Positions 35-13,483 of a DNA stretch of 59,840 nt are shown here, in pieces (position 1 is the stretch's first letter; each line of letters begins with the position of its first letter). The DNA lies in IMG/VR virus record IMGVR_UViG_3300001336_000006, positions 1-59,840 of that record; one strand, written 5' to 3'. The stretch comes from a virus (taxonomy: Duplodnaviria > Caudoviricetes). Under the pieces are notes generated by a model. That model did not search any database and had not been told where the DNA came from. It was given only the letters and a program-made list of their open reading frames with translations. A program made the position numbers and the translations under genes.

Positions 35-3000
35 ATGGCAAACACAATAATTACACTCAAAAGTTCTGGTGTTTCCGGAAACGTACCAAGTTCCCTTCAG
101 TCTGGTGAATTAGCAATTAACTATGCTGACGGGAAACTTTTTTATGGTGACTCTTCAAACACTGCTGTTTTGTTTGATGTTATCACAGAACCTGCTGGAT
201 TAAACGGTGAAGTTCAGTTTAATGACAGTGGTTCTTTCGGATCATCTTCAGGATTCACTTACAATCAATTAACAGAAGCATTAACTGTTACACTTTTGAA
301 TGTTGACAGTGATGCTCAGATTGATGGTGACACGACTTCCAACACATTCATTTCTTCTAAGTTAGCATTAGCGAAACCAGAACCGGGTAATTATACTGGT
401 GAAAGAATTCGTCTTTACGATTTTAATTCGCCTTCAAAAGTAAATTATTCTATTGGTGTTGAAACGAGTGCTATCTGGAATGCGGTTGATACCAATCTTG
501 AAGGTCAAGGTTTTAAGTGGTATGGCGCAAACACTGAGATTGCAAGACTTTCTGCAACAGGTAACTTAAAGACTTCTGGTGTTGTCACATCACAGGGTTT
601 TGTTGCAAACACATTCATTGAATTTCCTGACGGCACCAGACAGTTCAGTAGCGCAGACATTGTAGGTAACTACGCAAACTCTGCTTACGATCACGCAAAT
701 TCATCTTATTTACACGCCAACTCAGCATACGATTTCGCAAACACTAGAGTAAGTGACTCTGGTGATACAATGACTGGTGATTACTTTATTAATGGTAATC
801 TCACTGCAACCTATGTAGAAGTTGAAACGGAACTTTTTGCGGGTATTGCAACTTCTCAAGCAACATTACTTCCAAACATTATTGCTCAGTTTACAAGTAA
901 CTCTGAGACATACACTCAAGTCAATCAACAAAACATTAATCCAAACGGTTCGGCAGACTACGTTGTTACTGCTGATGTTGGTGATGATGATACATTCTAT
1001 GTTGATATGGGTATCAAAGGATCAGGTTATAGTTATTCTGGCGCACCAGTACATTATCCACTAGATTCATACTTGATCGCTAAAGGAAGCAATATCGGTC
1101 AACCCGGTGGTAATCTTGTAATCGGTACAATCACATCCTCATATGATACGGAAATAAAGTTTATTGTTGGTGGTGAATATACAGAAAATGTTGTTTCTTC
1201 AATTGACAAAAGTGGAATGTATGTTAATGGTCAATTCACAAGTGAAACAACAAACACTATTGCATCATACGCAAATTCTTCTTTTGGTGCCGCAAATGTT
1301 GCTGATCAGAAAGCAGTAAGTGCGGGTTCATACGCAAATTCAGCATATACTCAAGCAAACACCGGAACTCAATATGCATTGTCTGCTGGATCATATGCGA
1401 ACTCTGCTTATTTACAAGCAAATACTGGTACCCAATACGCACTTTCTGCTGGTTCTTATGCGAACTCTGCGTACACTCAAGCAAATACTGCAACAACTAA
1501 TGCGGCACAAGCAGATCAGAGAGCAGTAACATCTGGTGATTATGCTAATAGTGCATTTGCATTGGCAAATACTGCAAATGTACATTCAATTTCTGCGTAC
1601 AATCAAGCGAACACTGCGACAACAAATGCCGCAACTGCTGATCAAAAGGCAGTATCTGCTGGATCGTTTGCTAACAGTGCGTTTGATACTGCGAATACTG
1701 CAATCACGAACGCCTCTATTGCTGATCAACGTGCTGTAACTTCTGGTGACTATGCGAACTCAGCATACACACAAGCAAATACTGCAACAACTAATGCCGC
1801 AACTGTTCAATCACACGCTGACTCTGCATACGATCAAGCAAACACAGCAACTACTAATGCGGCAACTGCTGATCAACGTGCTGTAACATCTGGTGATTAT
1901 GCGAATAGTGCTTACACACAAGCGAACACTGCAACCACGAATGCATCAATAGCACAATCACATGCTGACTCAGCATACAATCAGGCAAATACTGCGACTA
2001 CAAATGCGGCAACAGCAGATCAAAAAGCAGTCTCTGCTGGTTCATACGCAAACAGTTCTTTCAATACTGCCAATACTGCAATCACAAATGCCTCTATTGC
2101 AGATCAAAAGGCAGTCTCTGCAGGTTCTTATGCGAACAGTGCTTTCTTAACTGCCAACTCTAAAGTAAGTAAGTCTGGTGATACAATGACCGGACAGTTA
2201 ATTATAACTGTTGAAGATGCACCATTCATTGTCGCAAATACCACATTAGTTGCAAATCTAAATGCAGACTTGTTGGATGGTTTAGATTCAACTGCATTTG
2301 CTAACGCAGATTTTGCGAACACAGTCAACACACAATCTTTAACTACTGGTGTGTATGCTAATGCCGCATTTGATCAGGCAAATACCGCAACGACTGATGC
2401 CGCAGTTGCTGATCAACGAGCAGTAACATCCGGTGATTACGCTAATAGTGCTTTTACTGCTGCAAACACGGCAGACCAGAAAGCAGTAACATCTGGTTCT
2501 TATGCAAATTCAGCATTTATCCAATCAAACACTGCTACTACTGATGCAGCAACAGCAGATTTGAAAGCGGTTATTGCGGGTTCGTATGCAAACTCAGCAT
2601 TTAATCAGGCAAATACAGCAACAACAAATGCCTTAAATGCACAAACACATGCTGACTCTGCTTATGATCAGGCAAACACATCAACTACAAATGCCGCAAC
2701 AGCAGATCAGAAAGCGGTAACATCTGGTGTTTATGCTAATGCCGCATACACTCAAGCGAATACTGCAACTACCAATGCTTCTATTGCAGATCAGAAAGCA
2801 GTGTCTGCTGGATCATATGCCAACTCATCATTTTCTGTTGCAAACACAGCAAATCAACGTGCAGTCACTTCTGGTGTTTACGCTAATGCGGCATACACTC
2901 AAGCAAATACTGCGACAACAAATGCCGCAACTGCTGACCAAAAAGCAGTTAGTGCTGGAGTTTATGCCAATAGTGCATTTGCAACAGCGAACTCAAAAGT

Positions 3001-4381
3001 AAGTAAATCTGGTGACACGATGACCGGACAGTTGATTATAACTGTTGCGGATGCTCCTTTTATTGTTGCCAATAATACTTTAGTTGCGAATCTGAACTCT
3101 GATCTGTTGGATGGATTAGATTCAACATCTTTCGCTAATGCATCTTTCGCTAACATCGTTAGTGCAAGTGCAACTACGACTGGTGTTTATGCTAATGCGG
3201 CATACACTCAAGCAAATACTGCAACGACAACTGCACAATCTGCTTATGATCAGGCAAACACATCAACTACAAATGCCGCAACTGCTGATCAGAAAGCAGT
3301 ATCTGCAGGTTCATATGCTAACTCAGCATTTGTTCGTGCGAATAGTGTTCAAACACATGCGACTTCCGCTTACAATCAAGCAAACACTGCCACAACTAAT
3401 GCCGCAACTGCTGACCAAAAAGCAGTATCTGCAGGTTCATATGCTAACTCAGCATATAATCAAGCGAACACAGCGACCACTAATGCCGCAACTGCTGACC
3501 AGAAAGCAGTATCTGCAGGTTCATATGCTAACTCAGCATACGCATTCGCAAATACCAGATATGCATCAACAGGTGGAACAATTGATGGTGACGTTACTAT
3601 TACTGGTAACTTGAATATTACAGGTAATGTGGTTTCGCATGGTTCGGACGATTTAATTATTGATGATCCAATCGTGTTGTTGGCAAATAATAATACATCA
3701 AATACAATTGATATTGGTTGGTCAGGAACATATAGAGATAATGGCACAGACAAACATCTTGGTGTTATTTCTCATGCCGCAACAAATACATTTTATGTTT
3801 TTAATAATTATGAACCGAGTTTTCTAGACTCCAACATACTAGACATAAACGATGCGTCATTTAGAGTTGCAAATTTAACTGCAAATCTTATCACCGATGT
3901 TGTTCAAGTTCGTGGTTATGATCCAATTGATCATGCGAACGCAGCATTTTCAATTGCAAATAGTGCTGCAAGTTTAGCAAACACAAAAGTAAGCAAGTCT
4001 GGTGATGTAATGACTGGTTCATTGACAGGAGTTACAACTCTTGGTGTCAATGTTATCACATTAGAACAGTCACAGATAACAACAAATACGTTCACAACAT
4101 CTTCCACTTCTCAAGTTTCTGTGGATGAGTTTTCATCAACAGCTTATAGGTCTGCTAAGTATTATGTCCAGATGACAAGTGGATCAGCGTATCATGTGAT
4201 TGAGTTGAGTTTGTTGCACGATGGATCAACAGTTAACTTAGTTCAGTATGGAGAAATTAGAACTGGAGCATCTTTAGGTACATTTGATGCGTCTATAACA
4301 ACAGGTACTTTAAGTTTATTGTTCACACCAACTAATGCGACAACAACAGTAAAACTAACAAGAACAACAATAGAAGTATAA
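35..4381 (+). CDS. Long repetitive virion fibre protein (Mtd_N-like N-terminus, Ala/Asn-rich coiled-coil repeats, conserved C-terminal beta domain)
   Basis: 1448-aa ORF; N-term LKSSG..P..L.SGELAINYADGKLFY; many ~28-aa AVSAGSYANSAYxQANTATTNAATADQK repeats; KVSKSGDTMTG motifs; C-terminal YRSAKY..LLHDG..YGEI domain; lies upstream of gp13. Confidence 0.8.
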   Translation: MANTIITLKSSGVSGNVPSSLQSGELAINYADGKLFYGDSSNTAVLFDVITEPAGLNGEVQFNDSGSFGSSSGFTYNQLTEALTVTLLNVDSDAQIDGDTTSNTFISSKLALAKPEPGNYTGERIRLYDFNSPSKVNYSIGVETSAIWNAVDTNLEGQGFKWYGANTEIARLSATGNLKTSGVVTSQGFVANTFIEFPDGTRQFSSADIVGNYANSAYDHANSSYLHANSAYDFANTRVSDSGDTMTGDYFINGNLTATYVEVETELFAGIATSQATLLPNIIAQFTSNSETYTQVNQQNINPNGSADYVVTADVGDDDTFYVDMGIKGSGYSYSGAPVHYPLDSYLIAKGSNIGQPGGNLVIGTITSSYDTEIKFIVGGEYTENVVSSIDKSGMYVNGQFTSETTNTIASYANSSFGAANVADQKAVSAGSYANSAYTQANTGTQYALSAGSYANSAYLQANTGTQYALSAGSYANSAYTQANTATTNAAQADQRAVTSGDYANSAFALANTANVHSISAYNQANTATTNAATADQKAVSAGSFANSAFDTANTAITNASIADQRAVTSGDYANSAYTQANTATTNAATVQSHADSAYDQANTATTNAATADQRAVTSGDYANSAYTQANTATTNASIAQSHADSAYNQANTATTNAATADQKAVSAGSYANSSFNTANTAITNASIADQKAVSAGSYANSAFLTANSKVSKSGDTMTGQLIITVEDAPFIVANTTLVANLNADLLDGLDSTAFANADFANTVNTQSLTTGVYANAAFDQANTATTDAAVADQRAVTSGDYANSAFTAANTADQKAVTSGSYANSAFIQSNTATTDAATADLKAVIAGSYANSAFNQANTATTNALNAQTHADSAYDQANTSTTNAATADQKAVTSGVYANAAYTQANTATTNASIADQKAVSAGSYANSSFSVANTANQRAVTSGVYANAAYTQANTATTNAATADQKAVSAGVYANSAFATANSKVSKSGDTMTGQLIITVADAPFIVANNTLVANLNSDLLDGLDSTSFANASFANIVSASATTTGVYANAAYTQANTATTTAQSAYDQANTSTTNAATADQKAVSAGSYANSAFVRANSVQTHATSAYNQANTATTNAATADQKAVSAGSYANSAYNQANTATTNAATADQKAVSAGSYANSAYAFANTRYASTGGTIDGDVTITGNLNITGNVVSHGSDDLIIDDPIVLLANNNTSNTIDIGWSGTYRDNGTDKHLGVISHAATNTFYVFNNYEPSFLDSNILDINDASFRVANLTANLITDVVQVRGYDPIDHANAAFSIANSAASLANTKVSKSGDVMTGSLTGVTTLGVNVITLEQSQITTNTFTTSSTSQVSVDEFSSTAYRSAKYYVQMTSGSAYHVIELSLLHDGSTVNLVQYGEIRTGASLGTFDASITTGTLSLLFTPTNATTTVKLTRTTIEV
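1245..3560 (+). repeat. Degenerate tandem 14/28-aa (42/84-bp) repeat array within the fibre gene, including a duplicated spacer domain at about 2130-2370 and 2970-3210
   Basis: Repeated YANSAY/F..QANTATTNAATADQ(K/R)AV; the block NSKVSKSGDTMTGQLIITV.DAPFIVAN.TLVANLN.DLLDGLDST occurs twice, 840 bp apart. Confidence 0.9.
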
Positions 4382-4405: not shown

Positions 4406-6433
4406 TTGGCAGCAGATAAGACTTTCGTAGTCCGCAACGGAGTACGAGTTGGCACAACAGATGTCATAGACAGTTCTGGAAACTGGATTGGACCCGGTAC
4501 TAACATCACAGGAGATGTTGGTTTTCAGGGTGCATCTGGTCGTCAAGGTATTCAAGGTGCTCAAGGACCAACTGGTGCAACAGGTCCACAGGGTATTCAA
4601 GGTTCAACAGGATCAACTGGTGTACAGGGTGCAACTGGTGCCACTGGTGTGTCTGGAGTTTCTGGAGCACAGGGACCTCAAGGACCCGCAGGAGCACAAG
4701 GTCGTCAAGGTTCAACTGGTCCTACCGGAGTATCTGGAACACAAGGTGATACTGGAGAAACTGGAGTTTCTGGAGCACAAGGTCCGCAAGGAACAGTTGG
4801 ACCTCAAGGACCTCAAGGTAGACAAGGAGCAACTGGTCCACAAGGAAGGCAAGGAACACCGGGAGCGCAAGGTGTAGCAGGAGCACAAGGACCACAGGGA
4901 TCAAGAGGACCCCAAGGACTTCAAGGTGTACAAGGAGCAACTGGTCCACAGGGCGTACAGGGTTTAGTCGGTGCAACAGGTCCACAAGGGTTTCAAGGAA
5001 GACAAGGTTCCACTGGATCAACAGGTGCAACAGGAAGACAAGGATCAACTGGAGGCACTGGATCTCAAGGTGTTGCAGGTGTCACTGGTGCAACTGGATC
5101 ACAAGGATCACAAGGACCTCAAGGACCACAAGGAGTTCAAGGAGCACAAGGTTCAATTGGTGGTACAGGACCGCAAGGTGTTGCAGGTGTCACTGGTGCA
5201 ACAGGATTCACTGGCAGACAAGGTTCTACTGGTCCTACAGGAGCAACAGGAAGACAAGGATCAACTGGAGGCACTGGATCTCAAGGTGTTGCAGGTGTCA
5301 CTGGTGCAACAGGTCGTCAAGGAGCACAGGGTCCACAAGGACCTCAAGGAAGACAGGGATCGCAGGGTTCTATTGGTGGTACTGGATCTCAAGGTATCGC
5401 AGGTGCAACAGGACCAACAGGATTTCAAGGTAGACAAGGATCAACTGGTCCAACAGGAGCAACAGGAAGACAAGGTGCAACTGGGGGTACTGGTCCTCAA
5501 GGTGTTGCGGGAGTTACAGGCGCAACAGGTAGTCAAGGTTTTCAGGGTAGACAAGGTGTACAAGGTTCTACTGGACCACAGGGAGTTCAGGGTGCAATTG
5601 GTGTAACAGGATTTCAAGGTGTCGTTGGTGTTCAAGGAGCGCAAGGTCGTCAAGGATCGCAAGGTCCACAAGGAAGACAAGGAACAGCACCAACTGGTGC
5701 AACGGGTCGTCAAGGAGCACAAGGTGCGACAGGAGTAACAGGATTTCAAGGTAGACAAGGAACACAAGGACCCCAAGGACCTCAAGGATCAACGGGAGCG
5801 ACTGGTCCACAAGGAAGACAAGGTATTGCGGGTGTCACTGGTGCAACAGGTCGGCAAGGAGCACAGGGCCCTCAAGGACCACAAGGTCCTCAGGGTCCTC
5901 AAGGATTTCAAGGAAGAGTTGGAACATCTATAACGGGTGTCTCTGGAAGACAGGGAGCAGTTGGACCTCAAGGAGCACAGGGTAGACAAGGTGCAACACA
6001 AACACTTCAGACATCAGTATCTGCACTGGGAGTTGGCACTGCTGCTGGTCCCACAGGAACCATTCGTGCGACTAGTGATATCACATCGTTCTATTCTGAT
6101 ATCAGACTCAAAGATAATATTGAGTATGTAAAAAATGCAGGAGAAAAACTGTATAGACTCAATGGTATGTTCTATAAACAAAACGAATTGGCAGAAAAAT
6201 ACGGTTACAGAAATTATTCACAACAAGTTGGTCTATTAGCACAAGAAGTTCAGAATGTTGTTCCTGAAGCGGTGTTTCCTGCACCATTTGATTTGGATGC
6301 AAACGAAAATAGTAAGTCTGGTATGAATTTTCTGACGATTAAATATGAGATGTTAATACCTCTTATTATTGAAACTATCAAAGAACAACAAAGAGATTTA
6401 GAAGAAATTTCTGAGAAATTAAATGGCAACTAA
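4406..6433 (+). CDS. Collagen-like fibre protein 1 with C-terminal peptidase S74 intramolecular chaperone
   Basis: TTG start after AGGGGA; Gly-X-Y from aa 36 to 531; [11 protein letters not shown] autocleavage motif, [12 protein letters not shown] and terminal coiled coil. Confidence 0.9.
5027..5310 (+). repeat. Exact 68-bp direct repeat (5027-5094 = 5243-5310), part of a 216-bp higher-order period in collagen 1
   Basis: gcaacaggaagacaaggatcaactggaggcactggatctcaaggtgttgcaggtgtcactggtgcaac present twice; degenerate third copy at about 5459. Confidence 0.9.
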
Positions 6434-8438
6434 TAAAAACTTTGTAATCAAAAATGGACTGACGATATCTGTTAATGACAGAATTGCAGCGAACGGAGTT
6501 TGGACAGGACCACCTTCCAACTATCCCGGAGCGCAAGGTCCTCAAGGTGTACAAGGTTTAACTGGTGCAACAGGAGTTGTTGGAGCACAGGGACCTCAGG
6601 GTCTTCAAGGTGTTACTGGTGCTCAGGGACCACAGGGAGTCGCAGGAGCACAAGGTCCACAAGGATCAACTGGTGTGACTGGTCCAACTGGATTTCAGGG
6701 TGTTCAAGGAGCAACAGGAGTTGCAGGAGCACAAGGGTCAAGAGGACCACAGGGTCCACAAGGTACATCACCAACTGGTGCAACTGGTCCTCAAGGATTT
6801 CAGGGTGCCCAAGGATTTTCTGGATTTCAAGGTCGTCAAGGCACTCAAGGACCTGCAGGTAGACAAGGATCATCACCTACGGGTGTAACGGGTCCTCAAG
6901 GTAGACAAGGAGCACAAGGATTCACTGGATTTCAGGGTGTCTCTGGAGCACAAGGACCGCAAGGTAGACAGGGTGCATCACCGACTGGCGCAACTGGAAC
7001 AACTGGTGTTTCGGGAGCACAGGGACCCCAAGGACCACAAGGAGTTTCTGGAGCACAAGGTCCTCAAGGACCACAGGGTACTGCACCAACAGGAGCAACT
7101 GGTGCAACTGGTGTTTCTGGTTATCAAGGCTTTCAAGGAAGAAGTGGTGTTGCTGGATCACAAGGACCACAAGGACCACAAGGCACTGCACCTACGGGAC
7201 CACAAGGAGTTCAGGGTGTTGCGGGAGCACAGGGTCCACAAGGAACTCAAGGAGTTGCAGGAGCACAAGGTCCTCAAGGTCCACAAGGTACTGCACCAAC
7301 AGGAGCAACAGGTACAACTGGTGTTTCTGGATATCAAGGTTTTCAAGGTCGTGCGGGTGTTTCTGGCACACAGGGTCCTCAAGGTCCACAGGGTACTGCA
7401 CCCACAGGTGCAACAGGCGCAACGGGAGTCTCTGGTGCTCAGGGACCTCAAGGATCACAGGGAGTTGCAGGAGCACAAGGTCCTCAAGGTCCACAAGGTA
7501 CTGCACCCACAGGAGCAACTGGTGCAACTGGTGCAACAGGAGTAGCGGGTGTCTCTGGAGCACAGGGCACACAAGGTAGACAAGGTGTTCAAGGACCCCA
7601 AGGACCACAAGGAGTTGTTGGTGCAACAGGTGTAACTGGAATTGTTGGTGCAACTGGTTTTCAAGGCGTTCAAGGAGCACAGGGTCCACAAGGATCACGA
7701 GGACCTCAAGGACCACAAGGTTCAGCAGGAGCAACAGGAGCAACGGGTCTAACAGGAGTATCTGGTTTTCAGGGTAGACAGGGAGCACAAGGACCTCAAG
7801 GAGCACAGGGTAGACAAGGTACTGCACCAACAGGAGCAACTGGTGCGACAGGTGTAACTGGAGCACAAGGATTTCTAGGAAGAACCGGATTTCAAGGTCG
7901 TCAAGGAGCACAAGGTCCTCAAGGACCTCAGGGATCAACTGGACCGCAAGGTGTACAAGGTCCTCAAGGTTTTCAAGGAAGACAGGGTGCAACTAGTACC
8001 GCATCAACACCAAACGTTTCTGCATTAGGTGTTAATGCCGCAGTAGGACCAACAGGTTCTATTCGTGCATCATCAACAATTACCTCTTTTTATTCTGACG
8101 AAAGACTGAAGAAGAATATTGAGACAATAGATAATTGTTTAGAGAGAATAACAAACATCACTGGAATTTATTACACACAAAATAAATTTGCAGAAAAGTT
8201 TGGTTATAAAGATTATCGCAGACAAATAGGTGTGATTGCACAACAAATTAAACCTTTTGCTCCAGAAATCGTAAAAATTGCACCATTTGATTTGGATGAA
8301 AACGGCAACAGTAAATCTGGTGAAAATTATTTGACTGTTCAGTATGAAAGACTGATACCTATGTTAGTTCAGTCAATTAAAGAACAACAAGTGCAAGTTA
8401 AAGAATTGTTAAAGAAAATAGAAGATAGAGGCAAATAA
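6423..8438 (+). CDS. Collagen-like fibre protein 2 with C-terminal peptidase S74 chaperone
   Basis: Gly-X-Y aa 36-524 with nine G-x-x-P-T-G interruptions; [11 protein letters not shown] and GVIAQQI motifs. Confidence 0.9.
6762..7520 (+). repeat. 105-bp (35-aa) tandem period in collagen 2
   Basis: (T/S/A)(A/S)PT interruptions start at 6765, 6870, 6975, 7080, 7185, 7290, 7395 and 7500. Confidence 0.9.
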
Positions 8439-8440
8439 TC

Positions 8441-10465
8441 TTGGCAAACAACTCAATTTTTATCGTAAAGAATGGATTGACCGTTGGTGTCAGTGATGTC
8501 ATTGCCGCAAACGGTGTTTGGATTGGTTCTACACAAAACATCAAAGGACCACAAGGACCTCAAGGTTTTCAAGGTCGTCAAGGTGTGCAAGGATCAACTG
8601 GTGCAACAGGACCCGCAGGTATTCAAGGCAATGTTGGTGTTACTGGTCCTAGTGGTTTTCAGGGAGTAGTTGGAGCACAGGGCAGACAAGGAACTCAAGG
8701 TCCGACCGGATTAGCGGGCGCATCTGGTGTGCAAGGTTCACAAGGTGCAACAGGACCACAAGGAGCACAAGGTTTTGCTGGATTTCAAGGAGCACAAGGA
8801 GCACAAGGTCCTACTGGTCCAACAGGAAGAACTGGAGTCGCTGGTGCTCAGGGTCCTCAAGGTATATCTGGAGCACAAGGCATACAGGGTGCAACAGGAG
8901 CACAGGGTTCACAGGGTGCAATTGGACCAACTGGAGTAATCGGAGTTTCTGGATCACAAGGAACAAACGGTTCAACAGGTCCACAAGGATTTCAAGGTAG
9001 ACAAGGAGCACAGGGAGCACAGGGACCTCAAGGCGTTCAAGGTGTTACTGGTCCCGCAGGATTTCAAGGTCGTCAAGGTGTAACTGGTCCTAGTGGTTTT
9101 CAAGGTAGACAAGGAGCACAAGGTGTTCAAGGTCCACAAGGTCCAACTGGTGCATCTGGTCCAACAGGTAGGCAAGGTTCAGTTGGTGTAACTGGTCCTG
9201 CAGGATTTCAAGGAAGACAAGGAGCACAGGGAGCACAAGGACCTCAAGGTCGTCAAGGTGTTACGGGACCAACAGGGTTCCAAGGTAGACAAGGTGTTAC
9301 TGGTCCTAGTGGATTTCAAGGAAGACAAGGAGCACAAGGCGTTCAAGGTCCACAAGGAGTAACTGGTGTTTCTGGTCCTCAGGGTAGACAGGGTGCAGTT
9401 GGCACAACAGGACCTACTGGTTTTCAGGGCAGGCAGGGAGCACAAGGAGCACAAGGTCCACAAGGAGCGCAAGGTGTTACTGGACCAACGGGATTTCAAG
9501 GTAGACAAGGCGTTACTGGTTCAAGTGGTTTTCAAGGAAGACAAGGAGCACAAGGTGCTCAGGGAGCGCAGGGACCTCAAGGAACACAGGGTTCAGCTGG
9601 AGCGACTGGTCCTCAAGGTAGACAAGGAGTTGTCGGTGTTCAGGGTGCCCAAGGTCGTCAAGGAGCACAGGGTCCTCAAGGACCTCAAGGTGCAACTGGA
9701 TCACAGGGTGTTCAGGGTATCGCTGGCGCAGCAGGATTTCAAGGAGCGCAAGGATTTACAGGATTTCAAGGAGTTCAAGGACCTCAAGGATCACAAGGTC
9801 CAACAGGCTCAACAGGACCAACAGGAGTCACTGGTGTCGCAGGTTTTCAAGGTAGACAGGGTGTACAAGGAGCGCAAGGAGCACAGGGTCCTCAAGGAGC
9901 AACTGGCGCAACTGGTCCAACAGGTGTAACTGGTCCCCAAGGTCCTCAAGGTTTTCAAGGTGTTGCGGGAGCACAGGGAGCACAAGGAGCACAGGGTCCT
10001 ACAGGCAGAAATGGTTTTCAGGGTAGACAAGGTGTTGCAGGACCAGTAGTAACTCAAGTTGCAGCACTGGGGGTCAACACAACAGCAGGACCAACTGGTT
10101 CTATTCGTGCAACAAACTCTATCACATCATTCTATTCAGATGAACGACTTAAAGAAATTGTAGGTTCTGTTGACCGTCCACTAGAACGCATAGATAGAAT
10201 TAGAGGAGTTTATTACGAACAGAGTGACTTGGCGAAAGACCTTGGTTTCGAAGACAGAGGTAAACAAATTGGGTTGATTGCACAAGAAATGAAAGAAGTA
10301 TTACCTGAAGTTGTTTCCAATGCTCCCTTTGATGTAAACAAACACGGACACAGTGTTTCGGGTGAAAATTATTTAACAGTTATGTATGAAAGAGTTGTAC
10401 CATTGTTGATTGAAGCATTGAAAGAACAAAAGGATCAAATAGAGTACATAAAATCTAAATTGTGA
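8441..10465 (+). CDS. Collagen-like fibre protein 3 with C-terminal peptidase S74 chaperone
   Basis: TTG start after GAGG; uninterrupted Gly-X-Y from aa 36 to 533/536; [10 protein letters not shown] and GLIAQEM..VLPEVV motifs. Confidence 0.9.
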
Positions 10466-10472
10466 GGTTAAA

Positions 10473-11048
10473 ATGGTAGGTGAATGGTGTTACTTTAAAT
10501 CATATTTCAGTAAAGATTATTGTAATGAAATTATAGAAAAAGCAAAAACGATTCCGAGTCAGGATGCATATGTTGGCATCAACGGAGAAGAATCTACGAG
10601 TCATGAAAGCAGGAGAAGTGAGATCAGATTCGTAAATAGTGGCGACTGGATGTTTAAAGATTTGTTCGATGATTTGTGGTCAATGTGTATTCAGGCAAAC
10701 AGCGACTTCTTCAATGTTCATGTTACAAAGTTAGACTTCATTCAAATTGCAGAATATGATGCATCATATAAGGGCGAGTACAAAGCACACCATGATGTTT
10801 TCTGGTTAAACAACGATCCGTTCTATCACAGAAAATTGTCATGTGTCATTCAGTTATCTGATCATAATGATTATGAAGGCGGTGATCTGGAATTGATAGA
10901 CACTTCAACATTTCCAGATAAAAATGAAATGCGTCAACAAGGAACTGCAATCTTTTTTCCTTCATTCTTCACACATCAAGCACACCCGGTTTTGAGGGGA
11001 ACTAGATATAGTATAGCAGCATGGTTTGAAGGACCCAAGTGGAGATGA
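10473..11048 (+). CDS. 2OG-Fe(II) oxygenase (PKHD / prolyl-hydroxylase-like)
   Basis: HxD (HHD), RKLSCVIQLS, YEGGDL, distal His and Arg (HQAHPVLRGTRYS). Confidence 0.88.
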   Translation: MVGEWCYFKSYFSKDYCNEIIEKAKTIPSQDAYVGINGEESTSHESRRSEIRFVNSGDWMFKDLFDDLWSMCIQANSDFFNVHVTKLDFIQIAEYDASYKGEYKAHHDVFWLNNDPFYHRKLSCVIQLSDHNDYEGGDLELIDTSTFPDKNEMRQQGTAIFFPSFFTHQAHPVLRGTRYSIAAWFEGPKWR

Positions 11049-11057
11049 TTTATTATT

Positions 11058-11768
11058 ATGGAAAAATACAATGAACCTTTTGAGTATTATGTACTTGATA
11101 ATTTCTTAGAAAAAGAAGTTGCAGAAAAGTTATCAGAAGAGTTTCCTTCTTATGACTATGACAAATGGTTTTCATATGAAAATCCTCTTGAAGTAAAGAA
11201 AACAATCAATAATTGGTATGAGTTTCCATCAGAATCTTATAAATTTTTCAGTTATCTGAATTCGAGTTTTTTTGTTAACGTTATAAAGAAAATAACAGAA
11301 ACTGAAAATCTGTATTGCGATCAAGGTCTTCATGGCGCAGGTTGGCACATTCACGGCAACGGTGGAAAATTAAATCTACATCTTGATTACGAGATTCATC
11401 CCAAACTGAATCTATTGAGAAAGTACAATCTTATCATTTACCTTTCAAAAGATTGGAATCCTGAATGGGGCGGTAATCTTGAATTTTGGTCGCATGATGA
11501 AGAAACCAATTTACCAAAAGAAAGAAAGGCAAAAATTGATTGTGTTTTCAATCGTGCAGTTTTGTTTGATGCATCTCAGAATTCATGGCACGGGTTTCCA
11601 GAACCAATCAATTGTCCAGAAGGCATGTATAGAAAGAGTATTGCGATGTACTATCTAACCGACATTCCAGACAACATTCAAAACAGAAAACGTGCGCTGT
11701 ATAGTCCAACAGAAAAACAAAAAAATAATCCAGAAATAATTGAGTTGATCCAGAAGAGAACAACATGA
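11058..11768 (+). CDS. 2OG-Fe(II) oxygenase (2OG-FeII_Oxy_3/4, prolyl-hydroxylase-like)
   Basis: GGKLNLHLD, IIYL..DW.PEWGGNLEFW, FNRAVLF, SWHG, RKS. Confidence 0.88.
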   Translation: MEKYNEPFEYYVLDNFLEKEVAEKLSEEFPSYDYDKWFSYENPLEVKKTINNWYEFPSESYKFFSYLNSSFFVNVIKKITETENLYCDQGLHGAGWHIHGNGGKLNLHLDYEIHPKLNLLRKYNLIIYLSKDWNPEWGGNLEFWSHDEETNLPKERKAKIDCVFNRAVLFDASQNSWHGFPEPINCPEGMYRKSIAMYYLTDIPDNIQNRKRALYSPTEKQKNNPEIIELIQKRTT

Positions 11769-13483
11769 GTGAAAAAAAGTGTAAAATTGTGATGATAACG
11801 ATGTTCAAGAATGAGGCATCAGTTATAAAAAGAATGTTGGATTCGTGTTTACCTTATGTTGATCATTATGTTATGCAGAACAATGGTTCAACAGATGGTA
11901 CAGACGAGCTTGCAAAACAGTTTTTAATCGATAACAAATTATCTGGTGAAATTTACGAAGTAGAAGAAGGATGGGTTGGTTTTGGTTGGAATCGTGATCA
12001 CCTGATTCAATATTGCCAGAATACTGATCATGGTTGTGATTGGATTCTCAAGATGGATTGTGATGAAGTATTGGAAGTTGATGATGATTTTGATTGGAGT
12101 TTACTTGATGATAAGTCGATTCAAGCATTCCATATACCAGCAGTAAGTGGCACATGTATCTATCATAGAGCGTGGATGTATAATGCAAATCTGCCTTGGA
12201 AATTTAATCACGATCTTTGTCACGAGACCGTCTACTGCGATATACCAGAAATTGGTCAGAATTTTCAACGATTTGATTTGCCACCATCATTCAGACAAGT
12301 CGGCACAAATGAAGGACAAAGTTGGGGTGTACCCACTAAGTTTGTTTCAGATTCATTGAAACTGGAAGAAGAGTTGATTCGTGAACAATCAATGTTGGAT
12401 AGAGAATACCACTTTTGGTATCTTGGTAAAAGTTACACTGATGCTTATCCATGTAGTGCATTTCCTCTAGGACATTCACAACAAAGGGAGTATGCAAGAC
12501 GAAGTATATATTACTTTCAAGAATTTTTGAATCACAAGTATGGTAATAAAAACATTGTTGATACAGACGAAACTGCATACATGTCTTTAATCTTCATTGC
12601 AGAAGCGTATACATTCTTGAAAGAGTATGAATCAGCAATTGTTTCATATAAACTTGCAGAAAAGTTTGCACCAGAGAGAAATGATCATTTGATTGGTCTC
12701 GCTAATTTATATCAACAAGAAAAAGATTATGAAAATATGTTGCAAGCCACAACAAAGATGATGCAACCAGAAAGAACAAATCCTTTCCCTAAGTATTGCA
12801 ACTTCATTGACACATCAATGTACAACGATAGTCCAGTTGGCACCGTTCAACAATTGCATGAAATCGCTGTAGTAAATACAAAAGATAATGAGAAAAATAT
12901 GATTGAAACATTTTACATTAACAAGTTACCGCAGAAGAGATTGTTTGTAGTAGATAATTTCTATTCAGATCCAGATTCTATTAGAAATTTTGCATTAACG
13001 CAAGTTCAATATAAAACAGACTTGAACTGGTACAAAGGTTATCGTTCGGTTACTGCTTATCATCCACCCGGTATCGTTGGAGCATTCGAAGACATCATCG
13101 GACAGAACATAGTTTCATTTCCTACAGGAACTGTAAATGGTTGTTTTCAGATTATGATGGCGATTGATAATCAAGTTTGGCACTATGATGAGCAGAAGTG
13201 GGCAGCAATGATTTACCTAACACCAAACGCACCGATTGAAAGTGGTACAAGACTTCATCGTGCAAAAGGTAACAATCTAATCAGACATAAAAATGATTCG
13301 GGGGTAGACGAACACTTCAATGGTAATTTTTATGATAGTACAAAGTGGGACATTGCAGATTCTGCAGGAAACTTCTACAATAGATTAGTTATCATGGACG
13401 CACAATGTGTTCATTCAGCAGGTTCTTATTTTGGTGACAGTTTTGAAAATGGTCGATTAACACACTTATTCTTTTTTGATTGA
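11765..13483 (+). CDS. Fusion: GT2-like glycosyltransferase + TPR-like helices + C-terminal 2OG-Fe(II)-type oxygenase (DUF6445-like)
   Basis: KNEA..I.R.L, NGSTDGT, DCDE (DxD), HET; helical FWYLGKSY..AEAY..LANLY region; VVDNFY.DPD.IR, HYD, AAMIYLTP, YNRLV..H..RLT. Confidence 0.8.
   Translation: MSEKKCKIVMITMFKNEASVIKRMLDSCLPYVDHYVMQNNGSTDGTDELAKQFLIDNKLSGEIYEVEEGWVGFGWNRDHLIQYCQNTDHGCDWILKMDCDEVLEVDDDFDWSLLDDKSIQAFHIPAVSGTCIYHRAWMYNANLPWKFNHDLCHETVYCDIPEIGQNFQRFDLPPSFRQVGTNEGQSWGVPTKFVSDSLKLEEELIREQSMLDREYHFWYLGKSYTDAYPCSAFPLGHSQQREYARRSIYYFQEFLNHKYGNKNIVDTDETAYMSLIFIAEAYTFLKEYESAIVSYKLAEKFAPERNDHLIGLANLYQQEKDYENMLQATTKMMQPERTNPFPKYCNFIDTSMYNDSPVGTVQQLHEIAVVNTKDNEKNMIETFYINKLPQKRLFVVDNFYSDPDSIRNFALTQVQYKTDLNWYKGYRSVTAYHPPGIVGAFEDIIGQNIVSFPTGTVNGCFQIMMAIDNQVWHYDEQKWAAMIYLTPNAPIESGTRLHRAKGNNLIRHKNDSGVDEHFNGNFYDSTKWDIADSAGNFYNRLVIMDAQCVHSAGSYFGDSFENGRLTHLFFFD

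What the first reader, a model, noticed from the sequence alone, without database searches (positions are those of the whole stretch)
4406..10465. Three collagen paralogs with exactly matched helix length: candidate heterotrimeric phage collagen
Seen: each protein has a 35-aa N-peptide, Gly-X-Y starting at residue 36, and an S74 chaperone. The helical parts are 496, 489 and 498 residues (chain 3 counted to GRQ-GVA, which aligns with GRQ-GAT in the others). Chain 1 has two and chain 2 nine single-Gly omissions (G-x-x-x-x-G), chain 3 none. Restoring those glycines gives 498 residues (166 triplets) in all three, although the X/Y residues have diverged. Inference: triplet indels are easy in such repeats, so exact conservation implies selection for a common register, as expected if the chains co-assemble into an ABC heterotrimer about 140 nm long (at about 0.29 nm per residue). 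Known: characterised prokaryotic and phage collagens are generally homotrimers.
Basis: partly seen in the sequence, partly recalled or inferred. Interest (0 to 1): 0.9.

Follow-up and report, generated by a model that had tools for sequence, protein, structure and literature searches.

The report
Length-matched three-gene phage collagen cassette
Three neighbouring phage genes encode collagen-like fibre chains whose helix lengths stay matched in related phages while varying eight-fold between them, which is best explained by the three chains winding into one mixed triple helix, something so far described only in animals.

Summary
ORFs 4406-6433, 6423-8438 and 8441-10465 each encode a 35-aa N-domain, a Gly-X-Y helix from residue 36 and a C-terminal Peptidase_S74 chaperone. 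The helices hold 496, 489 and 498/501 residues. That is 166, 166 and 166/167 triplet-equivalents once the 2, 9 and 0 one-residue gaps are counted as triplets.

I found 21 distinct complete three-gene cassettes on related viral contigs. On the tree, 20 hold one member of each of three old paralog classes (A, B, C). Helix length runs from 25 to 203 triplets between cassettes. Within a cassette it agrees to 1 triplet or less in 12 of 21, 2 or less in 15, and 4 or less in 18 (r 0.987-0.998; 0 of 100,000 permutations reach this).

Two cassettes 95-97% identical differ by one 8-triplet indel in each of the three genes. The internal repeat period is shared within a cassette (12 triplets, or 13). I found no gene conversion between the paralogs.

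Best reading is an ABC heterotrimeric collagen fibre registered by three paralogous S74 domains (about 0.6). Co-assembly is inferred, not shown. The main rival is three equal-length homotrimers. Three cassettes are mismatched by 7 to 36 triplets.

The parts
4406..6433 (+). Chain A gene (675 aa): N-domain, collagen helix, tip segment, S74 chaperone
   Evidence: ORF. Pfam Collagen plus Peptidase_S74. Falls in class A clade.
4406..4510 (+). Chain A N-terminal 35-aa domain (conserved F-x-V-K-N-G ... G-x-W-x-G), presumed virion attachment and N-terminal trimer
   Evidence: Alignment of N-domains. Trp lies 9 residues before the first helix Gly in 55 of 63 chains. The function is inferred.
4511..5998 (+). 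Chain A collagen helix, residues 36-531: 164 triplets plus 2 two-residue breaks = 166 triplet-equivalents
4871..5538 (+). Tandem array in chain A, period 108/216 nt (12/24 triplets)
   Evidence: TRF. Autocorrelation peaks at lags 12, 24 and 36.
5999..6094 (+). Chain A tip segment (32 aa) between the helix and the S-D-x-R-L-K motif. It would be the mature C-terminus after autocleavage.
   Evidence: Cleavage is inferred from the S74 family.
6095..6430 (+). Chain A S74 intramolecular chaperone domain (residues 564-675)
   Evidence: Pfam PF13884 at residues 564-623, 42.6 bits. S, D, R and K of the motif are invariant in 29 of 29 aligned relatives.
6423..8438 (+). Chain B gene (671 aa). It overlaps the end of gene A by 11 nt.
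   Evidence: Falls in class B clade.
6528..7994 (+). Chain B collagen helix, residues 36-524: 157 triplets plus 9 two-residue breaks (G-[TSA]-[AS]-P-T-G) = 166 triplet-equivalents
   Evidence: Breaks lie at triplet positions 27 to 111 in steps of 12, and at 147.
6743..7533 (+). Tandem array in chain B, period 105/210 nt (12/24 triplet-equivalents, each 105-nt unit one residue short)
   Evidence: TRF. Repeat family D6 spaced 105 nt.
8094..8435 (+). Chain B S74 chaperone domain (residues 558-671)
   Evidence: Pfam PF13884 at residues 558-617, 45.4 bits.
8441..10465 (+). Chain C gene (674 aa). It starts 2 nt after the stop of gene B.
   Evidence: Falls in class C clade.
8546..10048 (+). Chain C collagen helix, residues 36-536: 167 unbroken triplets (166 if ended at GVA, nt 10039)
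8924..9555 (+). Tandem array in chain C, period 108/216 nt (12/24 triplets)
   Evidence: TRF. Autocorrelation.
10136..10462 (+). Chain C S74 chaperone domain (residues 566-674)
   Evidence: Pfam PF13884 at residues 566-625, 39.7 bits.
10473..11048 (+). 2OG-Fe(II) oxygenase (191 aa) directly downstream. Possible but unproven collagen-modifying enzyme.
   Evidence: Pfam 2OG-FeII_Oxy_3 at E 1.5e-16. Nearest solved structures are PKHD-type hydroxylases such as PiuC, E 3.5e-5. An ORF of 190-192 aa follows the cassette in 14 of 16 loci examined, judged by size and position only.
11058..11768 (+). Second 2OG-Fe(II) oxygenase (236 aa)
   Evidence: Pfam. Weak matches to OGFOD1 (E 0.0012) and a prolyl 4-hydroxylase (E 0.013).
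35..4381 (+). Upstream 1448-aa repeat-rich fibre protein (context: fibre region upstream of the neck genes)
   Evidence: PHROGs tail-fibre families. Pfam Alanine_zipper.

Best explanation
The three genes encode the A, B and C chains of one heterotrimeric collagen-like virion fibre of a T4-like aquatic myovirus.

Proposed mechanism:
1. The genes abut or overlap and are probably made together.
2. The three paralogous C-terminal S74 intramolecular-chaperone domains associate one of each. This sets chain composition and register at the C-terminal end.
3. The Gly-X-Y helix zips towards the N-terminus.
4. The three 35-aa N-domains can close into the virion-attachment trimer only if every chain supplies the same number of triplet levels. 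Any length change in one gene is therefore tolerated only when matched in the other two.
5. One-residue gaps or insertions, and even whole PA14 lectin domains in relatives, are carried by one chain against two regular partners without changing the level count.
6. After folding, each S74 domain cuts itself off at the conserved S-D-x-R-L-K motif. This leaves a rod of about 142 nm with a small three-chain tip.

Shown here: the architecture, the motif, three ancient paralog classes, tight gene packing, length coupling and shared repeat period. Inferred: co-assembly, 1:1:1 stoichiometry, folding direction, cleavage and the place on the virion.
For: 1. Architecture and counts.

2. Old paralogs. C-terminal domains fall into three clades (98/94, 95/93 and 100/99 support). 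In the larger tree, classes A and B each hold all 21 cassettes and class C holds 20 of 21. Topologies within the classes are largely parallel. The triplication therefore predates the cassettes and the genes travel as a block.

3. Length coupling in 21 distinct complete cassettes. Length runs 25-203 triplet-equivalents. The within-cassette range is 1 or less in 12, 2 or less in 15, and 4 or less in 18 of 21. Pearson r is 0.998, 0.987 and 0.987, ICC is 0.99, and 0 of 100,000 permutations reach the observed sum of ranges. Independent contrasts without L230 give r 0.996-0.998 (n = 19). Sister-tip differences (A/B/C) are 8/8/8, 42/42/42, 44/44/43, 34/34/36 and 172/173/175.

4. L007 versus L034 (95-97% aa identity). 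Each of the three genes differs by 24 residues, near the C-terminal end of the helix.

5. Not gene conversion. There is no positional X/Y identity between chains. DNA matches between genes are only background-level, 60-73%.

6. Repeat period is shared within a cassette and differs between them. It is 12 triplets in the window, L004, L008, L102 and L010, and 13 in all chains of L023 and L011. In the window all three arrays have 2.5-3.1 copies of a 24-triplet unit and end near triplet 120.

7. The matched quantity is triplet levels, not residues. The triplet-equivalent range is smaller than the raw-residue range in 18 of 21 cassettes (Wilcoxon p 2.5e-4). L008 has 566/561/584 residues but 188/187/186 levels.

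8. With a PA14 domain inserted in one chain (L259 B), the flanking helices sum to 71 + 55 = 126, equal to both partners.

9. All 42 of 42 gene junctions are -17 to +6 nt.

10. Precedent for three consecutive paralogous fibre genes forming a co-purifying heterotrimer: virophage DSLV2, passages read in PMC12724248.
Against: - No tool result shows that the chains touch. Everything rests on co-variation.
- Interruptions in different chains are neither aligned nor avoided: 21 coincidences within 1 triplet against 20.5 expected. In animal heterotrimers such as type IV collagen many interruptions align (recalled, not checked here).
- Frame-shifting interruptions confined to one chain would each need a local stretch or bulge against two regular chains. 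Examples are nine -1 gaps in window chain B and 22 +1 insertions in L008 chain C. That is untested.
- Fibres with S74 chaperones are described as typically homotrimeric (passage in PMC12220804). [quoted passage not shown]
- I saw no consistent complementary charge or size pattern between classes in the C-terminal helix (by eye on the alignment).
- Three of 21 cassettes are mismatched. L102 is 182/175/181. L238 is 76/61/63, where chain A carries an exact 12-triplet tandem duplication. L230 is 128/128/92. Two partial cassettes are mismatched as well: L009 at 187 versus 168 and L012 at 188 versus 181.
- With L230 included, the A-C and B-C contrast correlations fall to 0.136, because of one near-zero branch.
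- The third gene of L250 does not fall in class C.
Confidence: 0.6

Rival explanations
1. Three separate homotrimeric fibres (AAA, BBB, CCC), each with its own tip, are kept at the same length by a shared geometric need. Examples of such a need are lateral bundling, joining at a common distal or proximal adaptor, or having to reach the cell surface together.
For: All described S74-bearing and prokaryotic collagen fibres are homotrimers (passages in PMC12220804 and PMC8968730). Single-gene collagen plus S74 fibres occur on related contigs (L068, L074, L081). Interruptions are positioned independently in the three chains. In L254 and L004 the chains carrying an inserted domain are 1-4 triplets shorter than the chain without one, as compensation of physical length would predict.
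Against: Agreement within 1-2 triplets (about 1-2 nm in 20-175 nm) in 15 of 21 cassettes, and exact 8/8/8 and 42/42/42 changes, is far tighter than separate fibres should need. These genes clearly mutate in length easily (single-gene variants between 99-100% identical contigs). Exactly one gene of each of three classes is kept in 20 of 21 cassettes, which is the chain number of a triple helix. An eight-fold length range argues against matching a fixed virion dimension such as the tail (inference; tail lengths were not measured here).
Confidence: 0.27
2. The fibres are heterotrimers but not strictly 1:1:1. They could have mixed or alternative compositions (A2B, AC2 and so on), as in the two-gene relatives.
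For: Two-gene cassettes with matched lengths exist (L083 at 158/156, L093 at 192/191). They form their own clade in the tree. If heteromeric, they must use one chain twice.
Against: In the three-gene family all three classes are retained in 20 of 21 cassettes, which argues that each is needed. Nothing here measures stoichiometry.
Confidence: 0.08
3. There is no selection on length. Equal lengths are left over from a recent triplication in each genome, or are kept by gene conversion between the paralogs, or arise from assembly.
For: The genes are adjacent paralogs rich in tandem repeats, the setting in which conversion and assembly collapse happen. Logan contigs break inside two of the window's arrays.
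Against: Orthologs in other cassettes are closer than paralogs in the same cassette (61-70% versus 48-53% C-terminal identity; three supported clades). There is no positional identity between chains in the helix and no long shared DNA tracts. Assembly errors would create mismatches, not matches, across 21 contigs.
Confidence: 0.03

Closest known systems
Complement C1q (A, B, C chains) and other animal heterotrimeric collagens (types I, IV, VIII, IX)
   Same: Three paralogous, neighbouring genes. Collagen regions of equal length. A C-terminal non-collagenous trimerisation domain that selects and registers chains. Interruptions present in some chains but not in others. (C1q details are recalled, not from a call. 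PMC8968730, states that non-collagenous domains direct homo- versus heterotrimer formation.)
   Different: The C-terminal domain here is a self-cleaving phage S74 chaperone, not a gC1q or NC1 domain. There is no hydroxyproline-type sequence (Pro mostly in X, Gln/Thr in Y). The helix is 25-203 triplets long and evolves by tandem-block changes. The setting is viral, not animal. Co-assembly is not shown.
Phage and virus fibres with a C-terminal intramolecular chaperone (Peptidase_S74: endosialidase tailspikes, T5 L-shaped tail fibre, collagen-S74 fibres of polinton-like viruses)
   Same: Pfam PF13884 match above cut-off in all three chains. The conserved Ser and Lys of the cleavage motif are present. 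A collagen repeat fused to S74 is reported in PLVs (PMC12220804 passage).
   Different: Known examples are single genes said to form homotrimers. Here three diverged S74 paralogs (48-53% identical) are kept together with length-matched shafts.
Bacterial and prophage collagen-like proteins (Scl1/Scl2, E. coli O157 prophage collagens)
   Same: Long Gly-X-Y runs without hydroxyproline, flanked by trimerisation domains. Role as a phage tail fibre (PMC3368898 search listing and abstract only. PMC8968730 passages).
   Different: Those are stated to be homotrimers (PMC8968730). No multi-gene length-matched cassette is described in the papers I found.
Tripartite tail proteins of virophage DSLV2 (PMC12724248)
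   Same: Three consecutive paralogous fibre genes. Heterotrimer supported there by co-purification and structure prediction. The proteins are related to Synechococcus phage tail proteins (passages read).
   Different: That is a gp37-tip-like fold about 16 nm long, with no collagen and no S74 ('collagen' and 'S74' occur 0 times in that paper).
T4 fibritin (wac) and fibres of the 'host recognition cluster' of cyano- and pelagimyophages
   Same: The genomic position is just upstream of the gp13/gp14/gp15-like neck and sheath-stabiliser genes. The architecture is a short N-terminal attachment part, a long three-chain rod and a C-terminal trimerisation element. PMC7029224 describes this variable fibre region and mentions collagen repeats in unidentified structural proteins elsewhere in the structural operon (passages). 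The fibritin comparison is recalled.
   Different: Fibritin is a homotrimeric coiled coil with a foldon that is not cleaved off. No sequence relation was found or sought.

Membership tests
Collagen triple-helix repeat proteins (PF01391) | Long runs of Gly at every third residue | tested here: met
   164, 157 and 167 Gly-X-Y triplets. Pfam E 4e-70 to 1.3e-80.
Collagen triple-helix repeat proteins (PF01391) | The chains actually form a triple helix (CD signature, protease resistance) | not testable with these tools
   Needs expression and biophysics.
Peptidase_S74 / intramolecular chaperone fibres | C-terminal domain matching PF13884 above the gathering score | tested here: met
   42.6, 45.4 and 39.7 bits against a cut-off of 22.
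Peptidase_S74 / intramolecular chaperone fibres | Conserved Ser and Lys five residues apart at the cleavage site (the motif definition is recalled from the endosialidase literature) | tested here: met
   S-D-x-R-L-K is present in all three chains. S, D, R and K are invariant in 29 of 29 relatives.
Peptidase_S74 / intramolecular chaperone fibres | Autocatalytic release of the domain after trimer folding | not testable with these tools
   Needs SDS-PAGE or MS of the expressed protein.
Heterotrimeric collagens (C1q-like organisation) | Distinct chains encoded by separate paralogous genes | tested here: met
   Three clades, with one member of each in 20 of 21 cassettes.
Heterotrimeric collagens (C1q-like organisation) | Collagenous regions of the partner chains have equal length | tested here: met
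   166/166/166-167 in the window. Range of 2 triplets or less in 15 of 21 cassettes and 4 or less in 18 of 21.
Heterotrimeric collagens (C1q-like organisation) | A non-collagenous domain that selects unlike chains | tested here: inconclusive
   Paralog-specific S74 domains exist. No complementary interface pattern was evident. Only one complex-prediction job was available, which cannot compare ABC with AAA, so it was not run.
Heterotrimeric collagens (C1q-like organisation) | Physical co-assembly of the chains in one molecule | not testable with these tools
   Needs co-expression with pull-down, native MS or cryo-EM.
Collagen prolyl hydroxylase system (for the downstream 2OG oxygenases) | The enzyme is a P4H-type 2OG-Fe(II) oxygenase specifically linked to a collagen substrate | tested here: inconclusive
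   The 2OG-FeII_Oxy_3 fold is present. The nearest solved relatives are PKHD/PiuC-type and, weakly, OGFOD1/P4H. Similar oxygenases sit beside the neck genes of Pelagibacter phage HTVC008M, which lacks the cassette, so adjacency is not specific.

The most novel reading that the evidence does not exclude
This is an obligate ABC heterotrimeric collagen, the first natural one outside animals, and it is widespread in uncultured aquatic T4-like phages. Chain choice and register are set by three co-evolved, self-removing S74 chaperone domains. Fibre length is tuned over an eight-fold range by coordinated 12- or 13-triplet block changes in all three genes. One chain is free to carry frame-shifting interruptions or a looped-out PA14 lectin domain against two regular partner chains.
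Probability: 0.5. Interest if true: 0.9.

Novelty: new variant of a known kind. Interest (0 to 1): 0.8.

Why it matters
Heterotrimeric collagens are central to animal matrix and immunity. They are hard to make recombinantly because chain composition and register must be controlled, and a 2022 review names this as an open problem and states that prokaryotic collagens are homotrimers (PMC8968730).

If these cassettes encode ABC heterotrimers, they would offer three things:
- a natural, hydroxyproline-free, bacterially expressible system with a removable registration domain;
- dozens of natural length variants (about 21-174 nm);
- examples of how a triple helix tolerates one-chain interruptions and inserted domains.

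For phage biology it would add a new kind of fibre, asymmetric at its tip, in the host-recognition region of abundant aquatic myoviruses.

Even if the fibres prove to be homotrimers, single-triplet coupling of length across three genes is an unusually clean case of compensatory evolution and would still need a structural explanation.

Tried and rejected
- **Close relatives among isolates.** Megablast of the cassette and of its right flank against the phage collection gave no match. No isolate in that collection holds the cassette. The best C-terminal match was 47% identical, in a non-collagen Pseudomonas phage fibre. HTVC008M and S-SRM01 carry single long S74 fibres.
- **Big protein collection.** The search for homologous proteins with the chain C end returned only unnamed or 'hypothetical' metagenome proteins, the best at 60% identity. 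It gave no name and no host.
- **Aligned or mutually avoiding interruptions.** This came out null: 21 coincidences observed against 20.5 expected at tolerance 1, and likewise at tolerances 0 and 2 and from either end.
- **Positional homology between chains.** There is none above shifted offsets. 'No indels since duplication' is therefore rejected as the reason for equal length.
- **Complementary charges or knob-and-hole residues in the last S74 helix.** I inspected the class alignments by eye only. Positions differ by class (for example E-Q-Q in A and B versus E-Q-K in C), but no consistent attractive or repulsive pattern appears. I dropped this as evidence.
- **Co-location of matched indels.** In L007/L034 and L008/L102 the matched indels sit near the C-terminal end of the helix. 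Gap placement in low-complexity or tandem sequence is ambiguous, so I do not rest on it.
- **2OG oxygenase adjacency as proof of collagen hydroxylation.** Rejected as non-specific. In one search the downstream ORFs of relatives were judged by size only.
- **Independent contrasts with all 21 cassettes.** A-C and B-C r fell to 0.136, because of the near-zero branch between L227 and L230. I report this beside the result without L230.
- **Rows dropped before the count of 21.** L229 and L234 were dropped. They have the same lengths as L227 (128/128/127) and were treated as near-duplicates without checking identity. Exact duplicates were removed by sequence.
- **Complex prediction.** Not used. One job cannot compare ABC with AAA, BBB and CCC, and a pass would be expected from likeness to solved S74 homotrimers.
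- **Sequencing runs.** One DNA run holds the stretch, probably the source, and no RNA holder is listed. Contigs laid on the stretch agree but break inside two arrays.
- **Supplementary files of papers.** These were not available. Those of PMC12220804 and PMC7029224 may list collagen-S74 architectures that I could not see.
- **Literature.** Seven searches found no paper describing a heterotrimeric phage or prokaryotic collagen. Subscription journals are not covered.

Full report
**What is in the window.** ORFs 4406-6433, 6423-8438 and 8441-10465 lie on the + strand and encode 675, 671 and 674 aa. Each matches Pfam Collagen (E 4e-70, 5.6e-66, 1.3e-80). Each also matches Peptidase_S74, at residues 564-623, 558-617 and 566-625, above the curated cut-off.

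A triplet walk finds a 35-residue N-peptide and Gly-X-Y from residue 36 in all three.
- Chain A has 164 triplets plus two two-residue breaks, 496 residues in all.
- Chain B has 157 triplets plus nine such breaks, 489 residues. Eight of the breaks are exactly 35 residues apart.
- Chain C has 167 unbroken triplets, 501 residues, or 498 to the point that aligns with the end of the other two.

Counting each break as a triplet lacking its glycine gives 166, 166 and 166/167. The only choice involved is where chain C ends.

The C-terminal 140-147 residues are 53% and 48% identical between paralogs and carry the S-D-x-R-L-K site. X/Y residues in the helices share no positional identity beyond background. 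There are no long DNA tracts shared between genes.

**Context.** The window is a 59.8-kb viral contig judged about one third complete. Downstream of the cassette lie:
- two 2OG-Fe(II) oxygenases and a glycosyltransferase/TPR/DUF6445 protein;
- neck (gp13/gp14-like) proteins, a sheath stabiliser and the large terminase.

The terminase is at best 55% identical to those of T4-like Synechococcus phages. This is therefore an uncultured T4-like aquatic myovirus. The cassette sits in the variable fibre region that a pelagimyophage study calls the host recognition cluster (passages of PMC7029224). Upstream is a 1448-aa repeat-rich fibre protein.

**The comparative test.** I searched viral contigs three times and metagenome contigs once with alignments of the C-terminal domains. 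That gave 292 loci plus the window, which I parsed with one script.

The parse found 23 complete three-gene cassettes with distinct sequences. Two (L229, L234) had the same lengths as L227 and were set aside as near-duplicates, leaving 21.

C-terminal domains form three supported clades. In a tree of all chains, classes A and B each contain all 21 cassettes and class C contains 20. The third gene of L250 falls elsewhere. Gene order is A-B-C or B-A-C. The branching order within the three classes is largely parallel. The triplication is therefore old, and the three genes are inherited as a block.

**Length coupling.** Helix length ranges from 25 to 203 triplet-equivalents between cassettes (about 21-174 nm at 0.286 nm per residue, a recalled figure). 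Within a cassette the three values differ by 1 or less in 12, 2 or less in 15, and 4 or less in 18 of 21.
- Pearson r is 0.998 (A-B), 0.987 (A-C) and 0.987 (B-C), and the ICC is 0.99.
- No shuffle of 100,000 reached the observed sum of ranges: 83 observed, 979 the lowest shuffled, 1773 the shuffled mean.

Cassettes are related, so I also computed independent contrasts on a tree of the joined C-terminal domains. With all 21, A-B gives r 0.996, but A-C and B-C give 0.136, because of one contrast across a near-zero branch (L227/L230). Without L230 all three are 0.996-0.998 (n = 19). Sister-tip differences (A/B/C) are:
- L007/L034: 8/8/8
- L227/L005: 42/42/42
- L241/L233: 44/44/43
- L254/L010: 34/34/36
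- L023/L250: 172/173/175
- L008/L102: 6/12/5

Partial or two-gene cassettes agree as well: 86/87, 115/115, 143/142, 100/99, 126/126, 158/156 and 192/191. The exceptions are L009 (187/168) and L012 (188/181).

**A natural experiment.** L007 and L034 are 95-97% identical in all three proteins. Each of the three genes differs by 24 residues, giving 107/107/107 against 99/99/99. The deleted segments differ in sequence between the genes, so these are three separate events of equal size.

In L008 versus L102 (82-87% identical) each gene again has one indel at a similar place, but of 18, 36 and 18 residues. That leaves chain B of L102 six to seven triplets short.

**Repeat structure.** In the window each gene holds a tandem array with a period of 108/216, 105/210 and 108/216 nt, in 2.5-3.1 copies of the long unit. 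Laid out in rows of 12 triplet-equivalents, the three arrays use different unit sequences but the same period, and all end near triplet 120. Units within a gene match at about 70-83% at the DNA level, while between genes identity is at background.

The arrays therefore grew or were homogenised after the triplication, separately in each gene, yet to the same size. The nine 'missing glycines' of chain B belong to its 105-nt unit and spread with it.

Across cassettes the strongest autocorrelation lag is 12 triplets in every chain of L004, L008 and L102. In the window, lags 12 and 24 are the two strongest in every chain. In L010, lag 12 leads in chains A and C and is third in B. It is 13 in all three chains of L023 and both chains of L011.

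**What is being matched.** The range within a cassette is smaller in triplet-equivalents than in raw residues in 18 of 21 cassettes (Wilcoxon p 2.5e-4). L008 has 566, 561 and 584 residues but 188, 187 and 186 levels, because its chain C carries 22 one-residue insertions, one every six triplets.

Some relatives carry a PA14/GLEYA lectin domain in the middle of the helix of one or two chains.
- In L259 the two helical parts of chain B sum to 71 + 55 = 126, the same as chains A and C.
- In L254 the sums are 170 and 169 against 173.
- In L004 the sum is 182 against 186 and 183.

**Interpretation.** Recent duplication, gene conversion and assembly artefact are excluded as causes of the match. Some strong constraint ties the number of triplet levels in three old paralogs.

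The simplest physical reason is that the three chains share one triple helix clamped at both ends. One clamp would be the conserved N-domain, whose Trp lies exactly 9 residues before the first helix Gly in 55 of 63 chains. The other would be the tip plus S74 trimer.

Other features fit this reading:
- the retention of exactly three classes;
- gene junctions of -17 to +6 nt in 42 of 42 cases;
- the tolerance of many frame-shifting interruptions in one chain of several cassettes, such as the window, L005, L008, L102 and L254.

A precedent exists for three consecutive paralogous fibre genes forming a co-purifying heterotrimer in a virophage, though not a collagen (PMC12724248).

**What speaks against it.**
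- Nothing here shows contact between the chains.
- Interruptions in different chains are placed independently.
- S74 fibres and prokaryotic collagens are described as homotrimers.
- I saw no complementary interface pattern.
- Three of 21 cassettes, and two partial ones, are mismatched by 7-36 triplets.

On the mismatches: L009, L012 and L230 differ from a 99-100% identical contig by a single-gene repeat indel, and L238's chain A carries an exact tandem duplication. These may be assembly collapse or fresh uncompensated variants, and I could not tell which.

The rival of three equal-length homotrimers therefore stands at roughly one in four. It needs an unknown reason for single-triplet precision over an eight-fold range of lengths.

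**Novelty.** Seven full-text searches found no report of a heterotrimeric phage or prokaryotic collagen. Subscription journals and supplements were not searchable. Collagen-S74 fibres and animal heterotrimeric collagens are both known, but the combination and the length coupling across three genes are not. I rate it a new variant of a known kind, with high interest, pending the co-expression test.

Noticed in passing
window 35-4381: A 1448-aa fibre protein made largely of Ala/Asn/Thr-rich repeats. It gives a Pfam Alanine_zipper hit and PHROGs tail-fibre hits. A block of about 330 residues is duplicated; each copy ends in K-S-G-D-T-M-T-G-Q-L-I-I-T.
   Followed up: no
window 10473-13483, and the same positions after the cassette in L004, L007, L008, L010, L023, L066, L034, L102, L093, L011, L028, L067, L070: Gene order after the collagen genes looks conserved. 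In 8 of the 16 loci a 190-192-aa ORF is followed in turn by ORFs of about 236-254 aa, about 570 aa and about 424 aa; in the window these are two 2OG-Fe(II) oxygenases, a GT2/TPR/DUF6445 protein and a 421-aa protein. Relatives were judged by ORF size only. Similar oxygenases flank the neck genes in HTVC008M, which has no cassette.
   Followed up: partly
L254:3264-8327, L259:4815-7034 (PA14/GLEYA); L004:10422-13094 and L147:939-2786 (another domain of about 170 aa with no Pfam match): Globular, probably sugar-binding, domains are inserted in the middle of the collagen helix of single chains.
   Followed up: partly
L250:8531-10426: The third collagen gene of this cassette has an extra N-terminal part of about 430 aa (five or so repeats of about 45 residues, then a Thr-rich linker) before the usual N-domain. 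Its C-terminal domain does not group with class C.
   Followed up: no
L263:4736-5914 and L263:16189-17973: Gly-X-Y proteins with aromatic residues in nearly every second triplet (runs of G-Y-W, G-S-V, G-Y-T). This is an unusual composition for a collagen-like repeat.
   Followed up: no
L066:1-6276 (same contig as L025); L007:4117-5256; L034:3600-4727: Further collagen-like ORFs lie upstream of the cassettes, with no S74 cleavage motif found. One has more than 2092 aa with four helical segments. Another has 380 aa with 52 triplets.
   Followed up: no
L083:1512-5383 and L093:8153-12647: Two-gene collagen-S74 cassettes with matched lengths (158/156 and 192/191) form their own clade. One chain is nearly regular. 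The other has 14 or 21 interruptions, about one every 8.5 triplets.
   Followed up: partly
window 4406 and 8441; the first-listed gene of most cassettes: Class A and class C genes often begin with TTG or GTG where class B begins with ATG. This assumes the first start codon of each ORF is used.
   Followed up: no
L009, L012 versus L008; L230 versus L227; L238 chain A: Contigs 99-100% identical elsewhere differ by whole repeat units in a single collagen gene. These are either population length variants or assembly collapse.
   Followed up: partly
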